Source: a virus
Lineage: Duplodnaviria > Heunggongvirae > Uroviricota > Caudoviricetes
Length of the DNA: 6,898 nt
IMG/VR virus record: IMGVR_UViG_3300029656_000038
Coordinates: 1-6,898 of that record
Direction: 5' to 3' (one strand)
The notes beneath the pieces are model-generated. The model made no database searches, was not told the origin of the DNA, and saw only the letters and a list, made by a program, of their open reading frames with translations. This document shows, one piece after another, positions 1 to 6,898 of this stretch (its first letter is position 1; every line of letters starts with the position of its first letter). The translations under genes and the position numbers were made by a program.

Positions 1-5
1 CACGA

Positions 6-38
6 ACCGATCTCCATCGATGTTACTCACCGATCTCC
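6..38. repeat. 10-bp direct repeat ACCGATCTCC (6-15 and 29-38) flanking the gene H stop codon
   Basis: Exact 10/10 match read directly from the sequence. It coincides with the point where similarity to P2 H ends. Confidence 0.5.
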
Positions 39-355
39 TTCACGGTAATACGCAGCGTTCCCGCATCATCGTACAGGCCAAGCTCACGCATCCAGAAACC
101 GCCCACCTCCGGCGGAATAACCAGCTCTGCGATAATATAATTACTGTTTCGTTTGTCCTGGCTGATTTTATTCAGCGCATGTCGCCAGACTTTATGGATA
201 AGCCCGGTCTGTCCGGCATCCGGGACAGGCAATTTACCACCGCCATCCCCGACGGCCATCGTGGTAATGTTGACCTTCCGCCCTCCCGGCGTGGTTGCCG
301 CTGCCAGCTTTGCTGCACCGGCAGTGGTGATAACGGTTCTGAATTTTGTGCTCAT
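23..355 (-). CDS. H: Tail fibre protein gpH, N-terminal 110-aa fragment; appears truncated relative to the ~670-aa P2 protein
   Basis: Translation starts MSTKFRTVITTAGAAKLAAAT..., which I recognise as the conserved N-terminus of P2 gpH. The ORF ends at a TAA at 23-25 after ...GTLRITVKEIGE; as I recall P2 H, it continues past GTL for several hundred residues. Sits immediately downstream of gene I, as in P2. Confidence 0.75.
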   Translation of the reverse strand: MSTKFRTVITTAGAAKLAAATTPGGRKVNITTMAVGDGGGKLPVPDAGQTGLIHKVWRHALNKISQDKRNSNYIIAELVIPPEVGGFWMRELGLYDDAGTLRITVKEIGE

Positions 356-365
356 TATTCCTCAC

Positions 366-896
366 TTATCCGGGGTAAACCGTAATTACATCGCCGTCAT
401 AAGCCACACCACCGGCGAACAGGTAGCCGGGAATGTCCCGGGTAATGTTCAGACCAATAAGGTGACGGCTTGCAGGTTTGGCATCAGCAATCAGCCGTTC
501 CATTTCCTGATACATTGCCTCTGTGATACCGCTTTCCAGTACACCAATATCAAGGCGGAAGGTGCCGGGCGGGTCACTGTTTTCCCACCACTCCGTCACG
601 TTGATGAGATAGCCGAGCGGCTCCACCACACGCCGGATTGCGCCGATAGTGCCTTTATGACAGTGGATGAAATAGGCATCGCGGATAACGGCGCGTTTTG
701 TCGCTTCCGGCCACTTTTCATCCCACCTGTCGACCGAAAACGCCCACGCCAGCCACGGCAGCAAATTTGCCGGGCAGGTGTCCGGGTTCCACAGCTCACG
801 AATCCTGACCGGCGTTTTTTCAATTTCCGCACAGGCTTTTGCGGCAGCAACTTCAAGCGGTGATGAGCCGGTCGGCAGCAGTCGCGAATCACTCAT
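366..896 (-). CDS. I: Baseplate assembly protein gpI
   Basis: 176-aa ORF (MSDSRLLPTGSSPLEVAAAKACAEIEK...) matching P2 gpI in sequence as recalled and in length; overlaps the gene J stop by 8 bp. Confidence 0.9.
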   Translation of the reverse strand: MSDSRLLPTGSSPLEVAAAKACAEIEKTPVRIRELWNPDTCPANLLPWLAWAFSVDRWDEKWPEATKRAVIRDAYFIHCHKGTIGAIRRVVEPLGYLINVTEWWENSDPPGTFRLDIGVLESGITEAMYQEMERLIADAKPASRHLIGLNITRDIPGYLFAGGVAYDGDVITVYPG

Positions 897-1797
897 CCGA
901 GCCTCCGGTCACGACGCGGTATTCGGTGCAGAAAGACGCCTGCGTACTGTTGAGCACGATGTCGGCCAGTGGTGCGGCCAGCTCGACACGCTGCACGCCT
1001 TCCACATGCAAAGCGGCATAAATGGCAGACAGACGGATGTCGCGCCCCAGCCGGTGCTGTGCCGTGATGTACGCTTCCAGTTTTTTCACGGCAGCAGCGC
1101 GGATGGGTTCGCTTTCGGGACCAGGGTAAAGGTAAAGCGTGGCGTTTATCTGGTATTCAACGATGGCGGCAGACTGCACGGTCACGCGGTCGGCCACCGG
1201 CCTGACGTCCTCACCATTAAGGGCGTTACGCACCACGGCCAGCAGGTCTTCGGATGCCACACCGTTATTTTCACGTGACAGCACAGAGATGGTGACGCAG
1301 GCCGGAGACGGACTGGTGACAGAGATATCCGCGACGCGCCCGTCGGCACTGCGACCATGATACTGATAGGCACCCACCGACCCGGCGACGCTTAAGCCCT
1401 CAAACGCCTGCTGAATACGCAGACGATAATCGGTGTCAGACTCCATCACTGCCGGTGTCGGCGGGATAGTCGAATCATCTGCCGGGGTGATAATCAGGCG
1501 CGTGGTGTTGTAATTGGCACCAATCACATCAAGGTCATTACCCGCGGCACAGGCCAGCATCACCGCCCGTGCGGCCTCATTCACACGCTGACGCCAGATA
1601 AGCTCACGATAAGCATTTTCCTCCAGCAGTTTGACGAGAGGCTCGGATTCCAGCGTCAGGGTACGGGCGACCGCCTCCTGCTGGTCTTCCGGGTAAAGGG
1701 AAATCAGTGTCGCCTTGCGTTCGGCAAGAATGGTTTCAAAGTCCAGCTCCTCGACCACATCCGGTGCAGGTAGCTGGTTCAGGTCGATAATCGGCAT
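889..1797 (-). CDS. J: Baseplate assembly protein gpJ
   Basis: 302-aa ORF (MPIIDLNQLPAPDVVEELDFETILAERK...) matching P2 gpJ in sequence and length; follows W as in P2. Confidence 0.9.
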   Translation of the reverse strand: MPIIDLNQLPAPDVVEELDFETILAERKATLISLYPEDQQEAVARTLTLESEPLVKLLEENAYRELIWRQRVNEAARAVMLACAAGNDLDVIGANYNTTRLIITPADDSTIPPTPAVMESDTDYRLRIQQAFEGLSVAGSVGAYQYHGRSADGRVADISVTSPSPACVTISVLSRENNGVASEDLLAVVRNALNGEDVRPVADRVTVQSAAIVEYQINATLYLYPGPESEPIRAAAVKKLEAYITAQHRLGRDIRLSAIYAALHVEGVQRVELAAPLADIVLNSTQASFCTEYRVVTGGSDE

Positions 1798-1801
1798 GGT
1801 T

Positions 1802-2149
1802 TCAACTCACAGGGATGGTTAACGAAAGTGGCTGGCCGGTGTCGTTGTGCTGGCCGGTTAACGTAACTGTCATTCGCCCGTCAAAACTGCGCTCAGTGGT
1901 GACGGATGACAGGGTGACGCGGGGTTCCCATTTCAGCACCGCCATGTAACAGGCGACCTTAATCTGCAACTCAAGCGCCGGGGTCTGCGGCTGGTCAATC
2001 ATTGACGCCAGCAACGAGCCGTAATCACGACGCATCACCCGTGAGCCGACCGGTGTGCGCAGGATATCGCCGATACTCTGGCTGATATGCTCAAGGTCAG
2101 TGACAGTCAGGCCATCACTGCGATTCATTCCGAGATAACGCGCTGTCAT
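1802..2149 (-). CDS. W: Baseplate wedge protein gpW (T4 gp25-like)
   Basis: 115-aa ORF (MTARYLGMNRSDGLTVTDLEHISQSIGDIL...) matching P2 gpW; overlaps the V stop by 4 bp. Confidence 0.9.
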   Translation of the reverse strand: MTARYLGMNRSDGLTVTDLEHISQSIGDILRTPVGSRVMRRDYGSLLASMIDQPQTPALELQIKVACYMAVLKWEPRVTLSSVTTERSFDGRMTVTLTGQHNDTGQPLSLTIPVS

Positions 2150-2781
2150 AGAGGGCTCCCGGTTGTGCCGCCGCTGTCGCCGGGGTGTTTATGGGTATGC
2201 AGTACCTTACCGTTTGATGAGAGTTCACCGCCGGTGTGTTCAATGTTGCCGCGCATCGTCCCGCCCTTCTGCACTTCCAGCGTGCCGGTAATCAGCCTGT
2301 TGGTGCAGACCACCTCCGGTGTGTCCAGGGTGACGCGGGTTGATGCTTTCACCATGACCACCGGCACCGTGGCAGTAACAGAATCAGAAGCCGTCACGCT
2401 GGCCGTTTTAATTCCGCTTACCGTGAGTGCACTGGTTTCGGGTTCATACTCAATCACCGCCCCGTCAGGGAAACGGATATGCAGGGCATCCGCCGACGCA
2501 GACGGCGCGGGGTTATCGCCGGAATAAATCCCCGGCAGAACAAACGCCGTGTCAAGTTCACCGCCCACGGCCAGAATCAGCACCTGTTCCCCCACGGACG
2601 GTGCCCACCATGTGCGCGAACGTCCGGCGCGATGGGTCAGCCACTGCAGCCAGTCGGTACACATGCCGCCGGTCTGCACACGGCAGCGACCGGCGTTAAG
2701 GTCGGTTTCGACGATAATGCCGGTGCGGATCATGTTGCGCAGTGCGCGCGCGAGTTCCTGAATATTTGCGAGAGTGTTCAT
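2146..2781 (-). CDS. V: Baseplate central spike protein gpV
   Basis: 211-aa ORF (MNTLANIQELARALRNMIRTGIIVETDLNAGRCRVQTGG...) matching P2 gpV in sequence and length. Confidence 0.9.
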   Translation of the reverse strand: MNTLANIQELARALRNMIRTGIIVETDLNAGRCRVQTGGMCTDWLQWLTHRAGRSRTWWAPSVGEQVLILAVGGELDTAFVLPGIYSGDNPAPSASADALHIRFPDGAVIEYEPETSALTVSGIKTASVTASDSVTATVPVVMVKASTRVTLDTPEVVCTNRLITGTLEVQKGGTMRGNIEHTGGELSSNGKVLHTHKHPGDSGGTTGSPL

Positions 2782-2793
2782 AACGGGAAGGAT

Positions 2794-2815
2794 GCCGCCG
2801 GGTCATACCGGCGGC
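2794..2815 (-). promoter_or_regulatory. GC-rich stem-loop in the S-V intergenic region (8-bp stem GCCGCCGG/CCGGCGGC, 6-nt loop), 12 nt upstream of the V start codon
   Basis: Perfect inverted repeat read directly from the sequence at 2794-2801 and 2808-2815. It lies in the only sizeable intergenic gap (2782-2847) of the block, where the P2 late promoter for the V operon is expected. No U-tract follows, so it is not a canonical intrinsic terminator. Confidence 0.3.
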
Positions 2816-2847
2816 AATGTGACGATGAGGTGTCAGGAATGGCACAA

Positions 2848-3300
2848 CTAACGGTCGAGGTGAGCCAGGATAATCTCTTCAATCATCTGCACATCCTCAC
2901 CGGTAAAGCCGAGCAGAGGACGCGCCGGATAATCAATTTTCTTACCGTCCTTCCGGGTTTCTTCCGACAGACCGAACTGATGCACACTGGCTATTTTCGG
3001 TGACTTCCCGCCGTAAAACTCCATTGATGCCTGTTCAGGGCTGGCGCGGATATGCAAAAAACGACTGGTGATAAGTTTCGCAAACATTTTTCGTTTAACG
3101 CGACCGGTCTTTTTTCTGGCGCTCTGCTGCTGGCGTGGTGCGTAGGGTGTGCCGTCCGGGGCTTTCTGTGCCATCACCCGGCGTTGCTGACTCTGACGCA
3201 GACGTTTCGCCAGTTCGGCGCTCAGTCGCCGACGCCCTGACGGTGACAGCGATTCAATCAGTCCGGTCAGCCGGTCTTCAAAACGCTTAAACTCATTCAT
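2848..3300 (-). CDS. S: Tail completion protein gpS
   Basis: 150-aa ORF (MNEFKRFEDRLTGLIESLSPSGRRRLSAELAKRLRQ...) matching P2 gpS; overlaps the R stop by 8 bp. Confidence 0.9.
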   Translation of the reverse strand: MNEFKRFEDRLTGLIESLSPSGRRRLSAELAKRLRQSQQRRVMAQKAPDGTPYAPRQQQSARKKTGRVKRKMFAKLITSRFLHIRASPEQASMEFYGGKSPKIASVHQFGLSEETRKDGKKIDYPARPLLGFTGEDVQMIEEIILAHLDR

Positions 3301-3760
3301 CCCACTTGCTCACCAGTTCGCCATTGATATAAAGCTCCATCGGGCGGGTGACCGGCTCCGGCGGCGGAGGTTCCGGGATATTCTTCACATGCAGTGCGCC
3401 GTCAACCTCACTGACCAGCGTGCGCTCGGTCAGCATCAGACTGATACTGATATCAAAGCTGCTGTCATTGTTGATGTCTGCATAAAACGTGAAGCCCTTT
3501 TTCTGGCCTGCGTCGGTGGTCATTATGTCGGGCTGATTTTCCCGCAGCCACGCCAGCACCGGCACGATGAGCAGGTCAAAATCACCGGTAAAATCGGTCA
3601 CAATGACATTGAGCGTGTAACGCTTTTCGAATGACAGCGACGTCGCCAGTGTGGAGGCAATACTCCCGTTATCCACGAATATCCGCAGCATCTCGGGGCT
3701 TGTTTTCAGCACCGTGACGGCATCAGTCAGCGCCCTGCGCAGGCTGTCGGGTTTGAGCAT
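3293..3760 (-). CDS. R: Tail completion protein gpR
   Basis: 155-aa ORF (MLKPDSLRRALTDAVTVLKTSPEMLRIFVDNG...) matching P2 gpR in sequence and length. Confidence 0.9.
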   Translation of the reverse strand: MLKPDSLRRALTDAVTVLKTSPEMLRIFVDNGSIASTLATSLSFEKRYTLNVIVTDFTGDFDLLIVPVLAWLRENQPDIMTTDAGQKKGFTFYADINNDSSFDISISLMLTERTLVSEVDGALHVKNIPEPPPPEPVTRPMELYINGELVSKWDE

Positions 3761-4013
3761 CGGTTTCGTCCTGACAGTGTTTAATCATTTTTACCAAGCT
3801 GGCACAGCGTGCCAGCGCGTTCTCAAGCTGCCGGATATCGGCACTTAAATCGCCGTTCGTCTCCGGGTCACTGCCCGGCATCGGGCAAAGGCTCACTTTC
3901 GGGCAGGCGTTGTGGACAATCACTGGCGTCGGCGCAGGCCGGGCGCTGGTGCAACCGGCGCACAGCATCAGGCAGGCCAGCGCCGTACCAGCGGCGAAAA
4001 TCTTCGTTTTCAT
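3723..4013 (-). CDS. lysC: LysC, Rz1-like outer-membrane lipoprotein spanin, nested out of frame in the 3' part of lysB
   Basis: 96-aa ORF (MKTKIFAAGTALACLMLCAGCTSARPAPTPVIVHN...) with a signal peptide, a lipobox-like LCAGC and a Pro-rich mature part; embedded in lysB in another frame, the typical Rz/Rz1 arrangement, matching P2 LysC. Confidence 0.85.
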   Translation of the reverse strand: MKTKIFAAGTALACLMLCAGCTSARPAPTPVIVHNACPKVSLCPMPGSDPETNGDLSADIRQLENALARCASLVKMIKHCQDETDAQTRQPAQGAD

Positions 4014-4293
4014 TCAGTAACCTCGCGATGGTTTTCTCGCGCTGTGCTTCACGCTTCGCGGCGTTCTCCAGTTCCTGACGCAGTGCCACCTGCGCCAGCT
4101 CGTTTTTGTCTGCTCTGGTGAGGGCAACATGAAGCTGATTTTTCAGCATGGTGATGGTCGTCTGCTGCCCGCTGGCGACGCTGTTCGCCCTGTCCAGTGA
4201 GGTGCGCAGGCTGGCATTTTCATGCTTCACCAGAAACAGCCCCGGCACCGCCAGTGATAACAACACAACCAGCACCGTCATCAGCTTTGACAT
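3868..4293 (-). CDS. lysB: LysB, Rz-like inner-membrane spanin
   Basis: 141-aa ORF (MSKLMTVLVVLLSLAVPGLFLVKHENASLRTSLDRANS...) with an N-terminal transmembrane segment followed by a charged, helix-prone region; matches P2 LysB. Confidence 0.9.
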   Translation of the reverse strand: MSKLMTVLVVLLSLAVPGLFLVKHENASLRTSLDRANSVASGQQTTITMLKNQLHVALTRADKNELAQVALRQELENAAKREAQREKTIARLLNENEDFRRWYGAGLPDAVRRLHQRPACADASDCPQRLPESEPLPDAGQ

Positions 4294-4706
4294 GGTTCCC
4301 GCCCCTCAAAACGCTGACGGCAGGCCGTACGTATCAGCCGGAAAAACAGCGACGCCACAAGATAAATCAGCGCAGTAAAAATCCACCCGGCAGCGACCAG
4401 CGAGATAAACGTCGCCACCATCACTACCAGAGCCACTGACCGCCTGCGCCACGGCACCGGCTGCAAAAACAGCGCCGTGACAATCTTCACGGCCAGCGAT
4501 TCCGGCGGCAGCTCCCGCCCGTAGCGTTCCAGCACATACTCAGTGGCATACACGCCGACACCACCGGCAACCACACAGATAACCGTCGCCAGAATTGCCC
4601 AGGCAGCGACAAAACTGACAGCCACGCTCTGCGGGTAAATCAGGGACAGTGCCAGCATCAGCGCCAGCGACACGTTCAGCATCAGTGAAATGGATAATTT
4701 CTTCAT
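4281..4706 (-). CDS. lysA: LysA, multi-pass membrane protein that modulates lysis timing
   Basis: 141-aa hydrophobic ORF (MKKLSISLMLNVSLALMLALSLIYPQSVAVSFVAAWAILATVICVVAGG...) matching P2 LysA; lies between K and lysB as in P2. Confidence 0.88.
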   Translation of the reverse strand: MKKLSISLMLNVSLALMLALSLIYPQSVAVSFVAAWAILATVICVVAGGVGVYATEYVLERYGRELPPESLAVKIVTALFLQPVPWRRRSVALVVMVATFISLVAAGWIFTALIYLVASLFFRLIRTACRQRFEGREPCQS

Positions 4707-4720
4707 GGTGTTTACTCCGT

Positions 4721-5218
4721 TTAAGCCGGTACGCCGCCAGCGGTACGCCAGACGGTGACCAGTTTTTCCAGTGAATGCTCACGCTGACCGTAACCGGCAC
4801 CCGGCAGGGACGCCCAGATATTGCGACAGCGTGAAATGGCGCGCTCAATGCGTCCCGCCCGGATGTCATCCAGTGCACCGCGTTCGCGGATCAACTGAAT
4901 GGCGAGTCTGTCCTGTGATAACGGACTGAAATCCGGCAGGGCAAGCTGTTTGCGGTAGTGCGGCCAGAACAGGTAAAGCTGCTGATAGCGACCGGAGGCC
5001 GTGGATTTTTCACCGCGACGGTTAAACACCTTCGCCGGTCGGCCATGTGCGAACGGGTGGTCACTGTAGTCGGTGAAGATTTCCGGCTTCCCGTCCAGTC
5101 CGGTGACTATCACGTCATAGCCCCGGTTTTTCGTCAGCGGGTGATTCGCCGTCCCTTCGGACACGGCCAGCATGTCGAGAAAGGCCGCGATATTCTGATG
5201 CGTGTTAATAACCGGCAT
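4721..5218 (-). CDS. K: Endolysin gpK (phage lysozyme)
   Basis: 165-aa ORF (MPVINTHQNIAAFLDMLAVSEGTANHPLTKNRGYDVIVTG...) matching P2 gpK; its start overlaps the gene Y stop. Confidence 0.9.
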   Translation of the reverse strand: MPVINTHQNIAAFLDMLAVSEGTANHPLTKNRGYDVIVTGLDGKPEIFTDYSDHPFAHGRPAKVFNRRGEKSTASGRYQQLYLFWPHYRKQLALPDFSPLSQDRLAIQLIRERGALDDIRAGRIERAISRCRNIWASLPGAGYGQREHSLEKLVTVWRTAGGVPA

Positions 5219-5499
5219 TACTGTTTCCCCCTGCCCTTAAAGCGGCGCTGAATGGCAATCTCAATCACCTGATAACCGGCGATACCCAGCATGGAGCCGA
5301 TGCCGCACACCGCAGGCAGTGACAGGTCAGGAAACTGCACCAGAACAACACCGGCAACCATCGAGACAAAACCACCGAGCAACATGCGCCCGATAAACAG
5401 ACGCGGGGTGATGGGTTCACCACCGGCAAGCACCTTGCCGACAACAATCAGCACTCCAATCATGAAAAGCGACAGGACGCTTTTTTCTTCTGCTGTCAT
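5218..5499 (-). CDS. Y: Holin gpY
   Basis: 93-aa ORF (MTAEEKSVLSLFMIGVLIVVGKVLAGGEPITPRLFIG...) with hydrophobic transmembrane segments and a basic C-terminus (RRFKGRGKQ); matches P2 gpY. Confidence 0.9.
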   Translation of the reverse strand: MTAEEKSVLSLFMIGVLIVVGKVLAGGEPITPRLFIGRMLLGGFVSMVAGVVLVQFPDLSLPAVCGIGSMLGIAGYQVIEIAIQRRFKGRGKQ

Positions 5500-5502
5500 G
5501 CG

Positions 5503-5706
5503 TTACTCCCACAGATTGACAGTTTCAGCCACGGGCGCGGTCTGAACGTCGGGCAGTTCGACGGCGGTGCCGTGCGGCAGCACCGCACCCAGTTCAGCCA
5601 GTCCCGGATTTGCGGCGAGCACGGTCTCAACCACGCCCTCAGTGCGCCCGTAATACCGGACACAAATGGCGTCGAGCGTGTCGCCCTGTAGCGCAAAGGT
5701 CTTCAT
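5503..5706 (-). CDS. X: Tail protein gpX
   Basis: 67-aa protein MKTFALQGDTLDAICVRYYGRTEGVVETVLAANPGLAELGAVLPHG... matching P2 gpX. I take the ATG at 5706 as the start rather than the ORF-track start at 5775, because that ATG overlaps the gene L TGA stop (ATGA) and gives the P2 length. Confidence 0.88.
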   Translation of the reverse strand: MKTFALQGDTLDAICVRYYGRTEGVVETVLAANPGLAELGAVLPHGTAVELPDVQTAPVAETVNLWE

Positions 5707-6215
5707 CAGATTTGACTCACGATGCAGCGCGGCTTGTCCTGGATACGCGCCACCGCCCAGCGCATATCCCGCCACAGTTCATCAATGGTGCTGTCAATGC
5801 TGTCGGCCTTCTTGTCGCCTTTCGCACTGGCATCCACGCCGCGGTAACGCTCATAAAGCGACGCGGTCGCCATCGCACACACGGCGCGCTCGTAGTAAAA
5901 AACTTTGATGCTTTCACCGTCGATGTCGTCCGCCGGAACGTCCGCCAGACGCGTAAAACCGGCGGCAATTTTCTGTTCGCGGTACTCGTACAGCTCCGCA
6001 TTCGTCTCCGCCATGCCTGACTTGATGGCCTCACGCAGACGGGCGGGGGCGACGGTCTGCTCAAGGCGCATACGTTCCCGGACGCGCTTCGGGTCGATAT
6101 CGGGAAAAAAGAACGTGTTTTTAATCACCGGCTCGTCGCCTGCCGGTTGCGGGATGACCACCGTACCCTCACCGGACACGGGAGCCTCCTTTCGCGGAAT
6201 AATCAGCGTCATCAT
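5706..6215 (-). CDS. L: Head completion/stabilisation protein gpL
   Basis: 169-aa protein MMTLIIPRKEAPVSGEGTVVIPQPAGDEPVIKNTFFFPDID... matching P2 gpL. The ATG at 6215 is preceded by a GAGGT Shine-Dalgarno; the upstream extension to 6275 would begin at GTG with no ribosome-binding site, so I reject it. Confidence 0.88.
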   Translation of the reverse strand: MMTLIIPRKEAPVSGEGTVVIPQPAGDEPVIKNTFFFPDIDPKRVRERMRLEQTVAPARLREAIKSGMAETNAELYEYREQKIAAGFTRLADVPADDIDGESIKVFYYERAVCAMATASLYERYRGVDASAKGDKKADSIDSTIDELWRDMRWAVARIQDKPRCIVSQI

Positions 6216-6314
6216 GACTACCTCTGAAAAGTCGGGCGGTGGACGCCGGTGCAGTGTCAGGTGATTCACCCTCACTGACCGGCGTGCCGCCCTGGCGCGG
6301 GGCGCATTCGGTTG

Positions 6315-6825
6315 TTAACTGGCTTTCTTTTTCGGGCGTCCACGTTTTGCCGGTGTCACGCTCCGGGTCTTACGCGGGGTACGGGTGGCCGCTTTGGGCT
6401 GCGGCTCCGGCTTCGGTTTCAGCTCCCGCTCCAGTCGTTCAATCTCTTTTTTGACGCCTGCCTGACAGTCGAGCTGTGTCGCACGTTGCAGGTGAGCCAG
6501 CGCACCGGCGGCATCACCACCGTCACGCAGAAACAGACCGGTGATTTTGTGCAGCTTTGCGCGCACTTCATCAGGCATGTCAGCAGCGGCAGTCAGTTCA
6601 AGGGTCTCCGTCAGCAGGCGGGTATCCACAGACTCACCGGCCGCGTGGGCGCGCATGGCCGCAAGCGCTACCTCCTCGGTGAACATGTACGGCGGGGTGC
6701 GGCGGTGTTTACCCGGCATGGTCAGACCGTACTTCAGGGCATAACGGGCAATCTCCAGCGCACCGGCAATATCGCCGGTATCCAGACGCCACAGCATGAC
6801 CGTCATCAGAATGTCATCCTGTGCG
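6315..6825 (-). pseudogene. M: Terminase small (endonuclease) subunit gpM, C-terminal ~169 codons only; 5' end interrupted by a mobile-element insertion
   Basis: Translation AQDDILMTVMLWRLDTGDIAGALEIARYALKYGLTMPGKHRRTPPYMF...KRGRPKKKAS matches the C-terminal two-thirds of P2 gpM (about 247 aa as I recall). Upstream of codon A (6822-6824) the reading frame runs into IS10-end sequence; the native N-terminal ~75 codons are absent from the window. Confidence 0.85.
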
Positions 6826-6898
6826 CTGATGAATCCCCTAATGATTTTGGTAAAAATCATTAAGTTAAGGTGGATACACATCTTGTCATATGATCAAA
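6826..6898 (+). mobile_element. IS10 (Tn10) outside end, partial; the element extends beyond the right edge of the window
   Basis: Sequence CTGATGAATCCCCTAATGATTTTGGTAAAAATCATTAAGTTAAGGTGGATACACATCTTGTCATATGATCAAA matches the IS10 outside-end terminal sequence as I remember it. It begins exactly where the gpM homology stops. Confidence 0.8.

What the first reader, a model, noticed from the sequence alone, without database searches (positions are those of the whole stretch)
6315..6898. IS10/Tn10 outside end inserted in terminase small-subunit gene M, splitting the late capsid-lysis operon
gpM homology ends exactly at 6825/6826, where the sequence becomes the IS10 outside end, so the N-terminal ~75 codons of M, its ribosome-binding site and the upstream genes lie on the far side of the element. 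Without an intact gpM the prophage cannot package DNA, and transcription from the upstream late promoter towards L, X, the lysis genes, R and S is interrupted. The 9-bp flank here (TCCTGTGCG, 6817-6825) does not resemble the IS10 hotspot NGCTNAGCN. Every other gene is full length, which suggests a recent insertion, possibly a laboratory Tn10 event.
Basis: partly seen in the sequence, partly recalled or inferred. Interest (0 to 1): 0.6.

Follow-up and report, generated by a model that had tools for sequence, protein, structure and literature searches.

The report
IS10 end interrupting P2-prophage terminase gene
The last 73 bases of the window are an exact copy of the end of the common jumping gene IS10, joined to a truncated packaging gene (M) of a P2-like E. 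coli prophage whose tail-fibre gene is cut by a second jumping gene; this is ordinary prophage decay in a human-gut strain.

Summary
Window 6826-6898 is 100% identical to bp 1-73 of the IS10-Right outside end of Tn10 (E 4e-30). Homology to intact P2-type gene M stops at 6825/6826. Codons 79-247 of M remain, so about 77.7 codons are missing.

- "Every other gene is full length" is wrong. Window 1-54 is the right end of an IS21-family element, ISEc12, which cuts tail-fibre gene H after about 100 of 681 codons. The window is a 6.77-kb prophage piece bounded by two IS ends.
- A laboratory Tn10 event is not supported. The identical contig occurs in human gut metagenome assemblies. The prophage core differs by 1 nt from an intact-M prophage in the human rectal-swab isolate E. 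coli MSB1_4E.
- The presumed target TCCTGTGCG matches 4 of 6 specified positions of NGCTNAGCN, which puts it in the top 5% of sites in the window.
RNA-OUT lies on the same strand as M', so the downstream late genes need not be transcriptionally silent.

The far junction, the 9-bp duplication and the choice between solo IS10 and Tn10 could not be shown. This is a known element doing a known thing, so interest is low.

The parts
6826..6898 (+). IS10-Right outside end, bp 1-73. This is the transposase-proximal end; the element continues beyond the window.
   Evidence: 100% identical over 73/73 bases to R100 Tn10 IS10-Right, with 4 mismatches to IS10-Left. The identical contig L004 extends the match to bp 123 with 0 mismatches and shows the transposase ATG at bp 108.
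6871..6898 (-). The 3' 28 nt of the antisense RNA gene RNA-OUT, which is cut by the window end. It is transcribed outward from pOUT, in the same direction as M'.
   Evidence: Rfam RF00240 scores 98.8 bits (gathering score 41) on L004 9-78 (+), which is IS10 bp 115-46 on the strand of M'. The conversion to window coordinates uses the exact containment of the window in L004.
6892..6895 (.). GATC (Dam) site at IS10 bp 67-70, in the pIN promoter region.
   Evidence: Read directly from the sequence. Its role in pIN control rests on established knowledge of IS10 and was not tested here.
6817..6825 (.). Presumed 9-bp IS10 target, TCCTGTGCG. One copy is seen; the duplicate would lie at the far end of the element.
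   Evidence: Adjacent to IS10 bp 1. It matches 4 of 6 positions of NGCTNAGCN and 3 of 4 of the relaxed NPuCNNNGPyN (consensus from PMC4574204). The duplication itself was not observed.
6315..6825 (-). Truncated terminase small-subunit gene M' (last nt of codon 78, codons 79-247, and the stop codon).
   Evidence: 100% identical to intact M of E. coli 18044 and others. Pfam PF05944 profile positions 45-130 of 130 are retained.
6315..6806 (-). Residual ORF of 163 aa starting at native Met85 of gpM. This is how gene callers annotate the remnant. A longer 188-aa ORF starts at an ATG inside IS10 (6881) but is not called anywhere.
   Evidence: The ATG at 6879-6881 lies in the RNA-OUT stem.
2848..6215 (-). 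Intact downstream genes of the same late operon: L (5706-6215), X (5503-5706), holin Y (5218-5499), endolysin K (4721-5218), lysA (4281-4706), lysB/lysC (3868-4293), R (3293-3760) and S (2848-3300).
   Evidence: ORF lengths equal those annotated in intact relatives.
366..2781 (-). Intact baseplate genes V (2146-2781), W (1802-2149), J (889-1797) and I (366-896).
23..355 (-). Truncated tail-fibre gene H': 100 native codons, then a Leu codon that spans the junction, then 9 codons and a stop read from the IS end.
   Evidence: Translation. Intact H is 681 aa in MSB1_4E. H homology begins at window 55.
1..54 (+). Right terminal 54 bp of the IS21-family element ISEc12, ending ...ACGCA.
   Evidence: Identical to the end of the annotated ISEc12 (istA/istB) in E. 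coli EC05 and MSB1_4E. L004 extends it to 126 bp.

Best explanation
The window is a 6.77-kb piece of a P2-like (Peduovirus) prophage of a human-gut E. coli. It is bounded by two insertion-sequence ends at which short-read assemblies break.

At the right, an IS10 of the active IS10-Right type is joined by its outside (transposase-proximal) end to the terminase small-subunit gene M after nt 233 of the gene. The most likely event is a natural cut-and-paste insertion of a solo IS10 into the 9-bp target TCCTGTGCG. In that case the first 80 codons of M, and genes N, O, P and Q, lie about 1.3 kb away on the other side (inferred, not seen).

The consequences follow from what is known of P2, not from tests here:
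- gpM loses its N-terminal third, so the prophage cannot package DNA.
- L, X, the lysis genes, R and S are cut off from the Ogr-dependent late promoter upstream of O.
- IS10's constitutive outward promoter pOUT points into them and could give weak read-through.

Together with the ISEc12 insertion in tail-fibre gene H at the other end of the window, this is a doubly inactivated prophage that is decaying by IS insertion.
For: Shown:
- The 73 bp is identical to IS10-Right and distinct from IS10-Left.
- The junction with M is exact.
- The window is 100% contained in an independent MEGAHIT contig from a human gut metagenome, which runs 123 bp into IS10 and 126 bp into ISEc12. A Logan assembly of the same run holds it too. 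So the junctions are real.
- RNA-OUT lies on the M' strand.
- No terminator-like site was found between the IS10 end and holin gene Y, that is across M', L and X.
- The core differs by 1 nt from the MSB1_4E prophage, which has intact M and H but its own ISEc12 in lysA. IS hits on this prophage are therefore recent and recurrent.
- The R100 control shows the expected 9-bp duplication for Tn10.

Suggestive:
- The product predicted for the far-side fragment exists as an exact sequence on 22 contigs from NCBI E. coli, ENA, JGI and Logan. That product is gpM 1-80, plus Asp, plus the stop supplied by the IS10 terminal CTGA (81 aa).

Literature:
- pOUT reads outward into adjacent DNA and can drive neighbouring genes (PMC2744996).
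- IS10 makes 9-bp duplications and often uses non-consensus sites (PMC4574204).
Against: - The far junction was never seen. Neither junction occurs in 5,426 complete E. coli genomes, the GTDB species representatives, the JGI metagenome contigs or IMG/VR.
- The 81-aa fragment is ambiguous. The native residue 81 is also Asp. NCBI labels it 'partial'. Two allelic 81-aa fragments appear to come from the same draft genomes, judging only from neighbouring accession numbers. This fits contig ends at a repeat boundary as well as it fits IS10.
- Contigs that start at window-equivalent 6824 break beside the one base (window 6825) at which the relatives compared differ, which suggests a polymorphism rather than IS10. 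This shows how such coincidences arise.
- Only 123 bp of IS10 is seen anywhere, so a full-length element, pOUT itself and the transposase gene are inferred.
- Expression from pOUT was not measured.
Confidence: 0.75

Rival explanations
1. The element is the composite transposon Tn10 (IS10-Left, tetracycline-resistance genes, IS10-Right), not a solo IS10. The window shows its IS10-Right outside end.
For: The 73 bp (123 bp in L004) is identical to the IS10-Right outside end of Tn10 in R100. A Tn10 insertion would look the same from this side.
Against: Nothing in the window or the related contigs links to tet genes. [quoted passage not shown] That solo copies outnumber Tn10 on E. coli chromosomes is my own knowledge and was not tested here. 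This is a prior only, not a test.
Confidence: 0.1
2. The junction is the product of an IS10-promoted adjacent deletion or inversion, or of recombination between IS copies. In that case the 5' part of M and the head genes are not on the other side and may be lost.
For: The prophage piece is bounded by two different IS ends, and neither far side is seen. No collection searched holds the predicted far junction.
Against: The same collections also lack the junction that certainly exists, so the negative result carries no weight. The exact 81-aa product predicted for a simple insertion with duplication is on record in the same kinds of sources. That simple insertion is the commonest IS10 outcome is my own knowledge of IS10/Tn10 and was not tested here.
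Confidence: 0.13
3. This is a laboratory Tn10 mutagenesis event, or an IS10 hop in a cloning host.
For: IS10 is present in many laboratory K-12 strains and causes cloning artefacts (PMC4574204).
Against: The identical contig comes from shotgun human gut metagenomes in at least two independent assemblies, plus further similar contigs. A second, unrelated IS sits in H. The parental prophage is found in human isolates, including an O25:H4 strain.
Confidence: 0.01
4. This is an assembly chimera that joins unrelated reads.
For: Contig ends at repeats are error-prone.
Against: The same junction was assembled with k=127 to 123 bp inside IS10 in L004. The window itself comes from an assembly with different end lengths (73 and 54 bases).
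Confidence: 0.01

Closest known systems
IS10-Right of transposon Tn10 (IS4 family; annotated by NCBI as 'IS4-like element ISVsa5 family')
   Same: bp 1-73 (1-123 in the identical contig L004) match exactly. The match covers the terminal repeat, the Dam site, the RNA-OUT gene and the transposase start codon.
   Different: Nothing differs in the part seen. The rest of the element, the 9-bp duplication and its solo or composite status were not observed.
Terminase small subunit gpM of phage P2 and P2-like prophages (Pfam PF05944)
   Same: Position in the late operon (O N M L X Y K lysA lysB R S). The retained part is 100% identical to intact prophage genes, and the whole window is about 97% identical to P2-like phages such as Wphi, fiAA91-ss and pro147.
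   Different: It lacks residues 1-78 and its own start and ribosome-binding site.
IS10 insertions that drive neighbouring genes from pOUT (for example otsBA in rpoS-null E. coli, PMC2744996)
   Same: The orientation is the same: the outside end and pOUT face the downstream genes. The target also resembles the consensus without being optimal.
   Different: There is no evidence of selection for expression here. The first downstream reading frame is a truncated gene, and expression was not measured.
ISEc12 (IS21 family) insertions in the same prophage lineage
   Same: The window's left end is the ISEc12 right end inside H. E. coli MSB1_4E has ISEc12 in lysA (5-bp duplication CCACC) and EC05 has it elsewhere in H.
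   Different: The insertion site is different and so the event is independent. Only 54 bp lies in the window.

Membership tests
IS10 / Tn10 (IS4 family) | Terminal sequence of the outside end (CTGATGAATCCCC...) | tested here: met
   73/73 identical to R100 IS10-Right, E 4e-30. 123/123 identical in L004.
IS10 / Tn10 (IS4 family) | Antisense RNA-OUT gene near the outside end, transcribed outward | tested here: met
   RF00240 scores 98.8 bits against a gathering score of 41 in the identical contig L004. Only the 3' 28 nt lies inside the window.
IS10 / Tn10 (IS4 family) | DDE transposase gene and a 1,329-bp element with an inside end | not testable with these tools
   These lie beyond the window and beyond every junction contig. 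Only the ATG at bp 108 is seen.
IS10 / Tn10 (IS4 family) | 9-bp target-site duplication | not testable with these tools
   The far junction was not found in any collection. Indirect evidence is that the predicted 81-aa product exists, but this is ambiguous. The R100 control gave CGCTCTGCC on both sides.
IS10 / Tn10 (IS4 family) | Target resembling NGCTNAGCN | tested here: inconclusive
   TCCTGTGCG matches 4 of 6 positions, and 4.6% of window 9-mers reach 4 or more. It matches 3 of 4 positions of the relaxed consensus NPuCNNNGPyN (PMC4574204).
P2-type terminase small subunit gpM | Pfam PF05944 domain and position between capsid gene N and head-completion gene L | tested here: met
   PF05944 E 1.6e-28 on profile positions 45-130. 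L lies immediately downstream. N lies upstream in intact relatives.
P2-type terminase small subunit gpM | Full-length, translatable gene | tested here: not met
   Only the last nt of codon 78, codons 79-247 and the stop are present, and there is no native start.
ISEc12 (IS21 family) | Terminal sequence adjoining istB, ending in CA | tested here: met
   Window 1-54 is identical to the end of the annotated ISEc12 in EC05 and MSB1_4E.

The most novel reading that the evidence does not exclude
The IS10 insertion does more than kill the prophage. With pOUT facing M', it would uncouple L, X, holin, endolysin, spanins, R and S from Ogr control and express them weakly and constitutively. The disrupted prophage would then be a retained, rewired lysis/tail module.

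Separately, codons 77-81 of gpM might be a shared insertion hot spot. In an unrelated P2-like prophage, ISEc12 sits only 4 nt from this IS10 site.
Probability: 0.05. Interest if true: 0.35.

Novelty: already known. Interest (0 to 1): 0.1.

Why it matters
It matters little beyond annotation. The result shows that this contig is not a viable phage but an IS-bounded fragment of a doubly disrupted P2-like prophage, and that its ends are repeat-induced assembly breaks. This prophage lineage, found in human isolates including an O25:H4 strain, has taken independent IS hits in M, H and lysA in otherwise nearly identical copies. That is a small, clean example of rapid prophage inactivation by insertion sequences. 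It could serve as a strain marker in gut metagenomes.

Tried and rejected
- **Far-junction pattern scans.** Exact scans for the predicted far junction (GGGGATYYMTCAG+TCCTGTGCG+CCTTTGCC, covering either IS10 end) found nothing in the GTDB representatives, the JGI metagenomes or IMG/VR. The junction that is in the window is also absent from these collections, so the negative results say nothing.
- **Complete E. coli genomes.** Megablast of the junction found no genome with it. The single hit with 80% or more coverage is an IS10 copy at an unrelated locus, at 92% identity.
- **Fusion ORFs.** Look-ups of the 188-aa and 181-aa ORFs that start inside IS10 found neither called anywhere.
- **Junction-spanning partial proteins.** Look-ups of ten partial proteins were made. 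Only the native-sequence 169-aa form exists. Five of the six contigs that carry it start at 6824, next to the one base (window 6825, GGC/GGT) at which the relatives compared differ, and carry no IS10 sequence; the sixth is L011, the Logan assembly of the window's own run. This is not evidence for IS10 in isolates.
- **Contigs L006 and L008.** They share the 163-aa M' product, but they turned out to be homopolymer frameshifts in M, not insertions.
- **Promoter and terminator scan of 5400-6898.** It found nothing.

Full report
**1. The observation**

The last 73 bases of the window (6826-6898) read CTGATGAATCCCCTAATGATTTTGGTAAAAATCATTAAGTTAAGGTGGATACACATCTTGTCATATGATCAAA.

- Megablast against the plasmid collection gives 2,752 matching records, 2,717 of them at 99% identity or more. 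One is plasmid R100, with 73/73 identity and E 4e-30.
- In R100 the match lies 35 bp upstream of the IS4-family transposase gene that borders tetC/tet(B). That is the outside end of IS10-Right of Tn10.
- A base-by-base comparison with both IS10 copies of R100 gives 0 mismatches to IS10-Right and 4 to IS10-Left, at bp 24, 25, 27 and 47.

On the other side of the junction, window 6315-6826 is 100% identical to the 3' 512 nt of 744-nt genes in seven complete E. coli genomes. These genes are annotated 'terminase endonuclease subunit' or 'phage terminase small subunit'.

The whole window (56-6824) is 97-98% identical to P2-like phages such as HQ103, pro147, Wphi and fiAA91-ss. In these the gene is annotated M, terminase small subunit.

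The intact gene reads ...TCCTGTGCG|CCTTTGCC where the window reads ...TCCTGTGCG|CTGATGAA. It is ambiguous by one base because C6826 fits both sequences.

What remains of M is the last nt of codon 78, codons 79-247 and the stop. Residues 1-78 are lost, and with them the first 44 of 130 profile positions of Pfam PF05944.

**2. What else is in the window**

Read on the minus strand, the window is the P2 late region H' I J W V S R lysB/C lysA K Y X L M'. The thirteen genes from I to L have the same lengths as in intact relatives.

H does not. Its reading frame ends after 110 codons at 23-25, and phage homology stops at 54/55.

- Window 1-54 is identical to the right terminus (...ACGCA) of the annotated IS21-family element ISEc12 (istA/istB), as found in E. 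coli EC05 and MSB1_4E.
- Intact H in the closest relative is 681 aa. Here only the first 100 native codons remain, covering about two thirds of the N-terminal collar domain and none of the fibre.

The window is a 6,771-bp prophage segment bounded by two different IS ends, which is the typical look of a short-read contig that stops at repeats.

**3. Where it comes from**

The window is contained, base for base, in a 7,020-bp MEGAHIT (k127) contig of a human gut metagenome (ENA ERZ918314, run ERR912022).

- That contig runs 123 bp into IS10 and 126 bp into ISEc12.
- A Logan assembly of the same run carries the same segment.
- Another ENA assembly (ERZ27306524) carries the H'-ISEc12 junction, and several further similar contigs are on record.
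- The extra 50 bp of IS10 is again identical to IS10-Right and includes the transposase ATG at bp 108.

After removing the IS ends, the core (55-6825) differs at a single position (193) from a prophage of E. coli MSB1_4E, a human rectal-swab isolate from Australia.

- That prophage has intact M and H but carries its own ISEc12 (2,581 bp, 5-bp duplication CCACC) in lysA.
- Six other human isolates, including O25:H4 strain 18044, are essentially identical and uninterrupted.

The insertions are therefore recent, natural and recurrent in this prophage lineage. A laboratory Tn10 event is not a sensible reading.

No complete E. coli genome, GTDB species representative, JGI metagenome contig or IMG/VR contig contains the IS10-M' junction.

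**4. The far side**

The far side could not be seen. Pattern scans for the predicted second junction, with either IS10 end followed by TCCTGTGCG and CCTTTGCC, were negative. Because the same collections also lack the junction that certainly exists, this says nothing.

An indirect test was possible. A simple insertion with a 9-bp duplication predicts a left-over product of gpM residues 1-80, then Asp, then a stop supplied by the terminal CTGA of IS10, whichever IS10 end is there.

- Exactly that 81-aa sequence is in the protein collection, on 22 contigs from NCBI E. coli drafts, ENA, JGI and Logan.
- I rate this as suggestive only, for three reasons:
  - The native residue 81 is also Asp.
  - NCBI calls these proteins 'partial'.
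  - Two allelic 81-aa fragments appear to come from the same draft genomes, judging only from neighbouring accession numbers, which looks like contig ends at a repeat boundary.
- A parallel test on the near side showed how such coincidences arise. Contigs whose partial M starts at codon 79 begin at window-equivalent 6824. That is next to the one base (window 6825, GGC/GGT) at which the relatives compared differ, and these contigs carry no IS10 sequence.

The contigs of the 81-aa protein could not be fetched.

**5. How it most likely works**

Shown:
- An IS10-Right outside end abuts M at nt 233/234 of the gene.
- The RNA-OUT gene (Rfam RF00240, 98.8 bits) lies on the same strand as M' at IS10 bp 115-46. 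Its 3' 28 nt lies inside the window at 6871-6898.

Established knowledge:
- IS10 makes 9-bp duplications, prefers NGCTNAGCN, and often uses weaker sites (PMC4574204).
[quoted passage not shown] 1983).
- In P2, M is the small terminase subunit and belongs to the late operon that starts at O and runs through L, X, the lysis genes, R and S.

Inferred:
- A solo IS10 (less likely Tn10) inserted into TCCTGTGCG.
- gpM is inactivated, so packaging fails.
- The downstream genes are separated from their Ogr-dependent promoter by at least 1.3 kb, but they face pOUT.
- No terminator-like site lies between the IS10 end and holin gene Y, so weak constitutive read-through is plausible. It was not measured.
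- The residual frames are probably not significant:
  - A 163-aa frame starts at native Met85.
  - A 188-aa frame starts at an ATG that sits in the RNA-OUT stem, and no gene caller reports it.
- With H also cut, the prophage cannot make infectious particles by two independent routes.

**6. The target site**

TCCTGTGCG matches C3, T4, G7 and C8 of NGCTNAGCN, that is 4 of 6 specified positions.

- Only 4.6% of the 9-mers in the window core, and 5.6% of those in an intact M gene, score that high.
- It matches 3 of 4 positions of the relaxed consensus NPuCNNNGPyN.
- It is a typical sub-optimal IS10 site, not one that 'does not resemble' the hotspot.

**7. Comparison, novelty and verdict**

Everything seen is a known element (IS10-Right, identical in sequence) doing a known thing (insertional disruption of a prophage gene) in a well-known phage family.

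The specific allele is not in the complete-genome collections, but that does not make it a new kind of thing. The best explanation has confidence of about 0.75. The remaining uncertainty is almost entirely about the unseen far side: solo IS10, Tn10, or a rearrangement.

Interest is 0.1. The only mildly interesting threads are the outward-promoter orientation and the clustering of independent IS hits: IS10 here, and ISEc12 4 nt away in an unrelated prophage. The latter may well be chance combined with the way the contigs were retrieved.

Noticed in passing
window 1-54 (and H' at 23-355, minus strand): The left end of the window is the right terminus of the IS21-family element ISEc12. It truncates tail-fibre gene H after about 100 of 681 codons, so the window is bounded by two different IS ends and looks like a complete repeat-limited contig.
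   Followed up: yes
L007 1-60 (Logan SRR21729551 contig; window-equivalent 6829): In a different P2-like prophage (a different allele with intact H), the LEFT end of ISEc12 is inserted in M only 4 nt from the IS10 site of the window. Two unrelated IS families hit the same few codons. This could be a hot spot or chance; a rough estimate gives p about 0.04, given that the look-up only finds disruptions upstream of Met85.
   Followed up: partly
L010 13365-15945 (E. coli MSB1_4E; window-equivalent about 4419): The nearest complete-genome relative of this prophage (1 nt different over 6,771 bp) carries ISEc12 in lysA with a 5-bp duplication CCACC. The same prophage lineage has therefore been hit independently by IS elements in at least three genes (M, H, lysA).
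   Followed up: yes
L011 position 1 (window-equivalent 6826): The Logan (k=31) contig of run ERR912022 stops 1 base into IS10 but runs 29 bases into ISEc12. This implies a graph branch at 6827, most simply because an uninterrupted M allele with the same preceding 30-mer is also present in that gut sample (a second prophage, a second strain, or a mixed population).
   Followed up: no
window 6825 (M nt 234): The relatives compared differ at one base here, a synonymous GGC/GGT difference at Gly78 of gpM that sits exactly at the last base before IS10. Five contigs from other assemblies start immediately after it. It mimics an insertion breakpoint in draft assemblies.
   Followed up: partly
window 2782-2847: The S-V intergenic gap is only 66 bp here. 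Related prophages carry an extra gene at this spot (786 nt on the opposite strand in EC05, L003 12422-13207; a 251-aa ORF in L006 13959-14714). This is a cargo-gene slot that is empty in the window.
   Followed up: no
L006 9751-10492 and L008 28-772: Two other assemblies split M into two ORFs through length changes in A-runs (codons about 50-58). These may be sequencing errors or genuine frameshift inactivation of M.
   Followed up: partly
window 6312-6863 (+): A 183-aa TTG-started ORF lies antisense to M' and runs into IS10. It is most likely a spurious antisense frame in GC-rich coding DNA.
   Followed up: no
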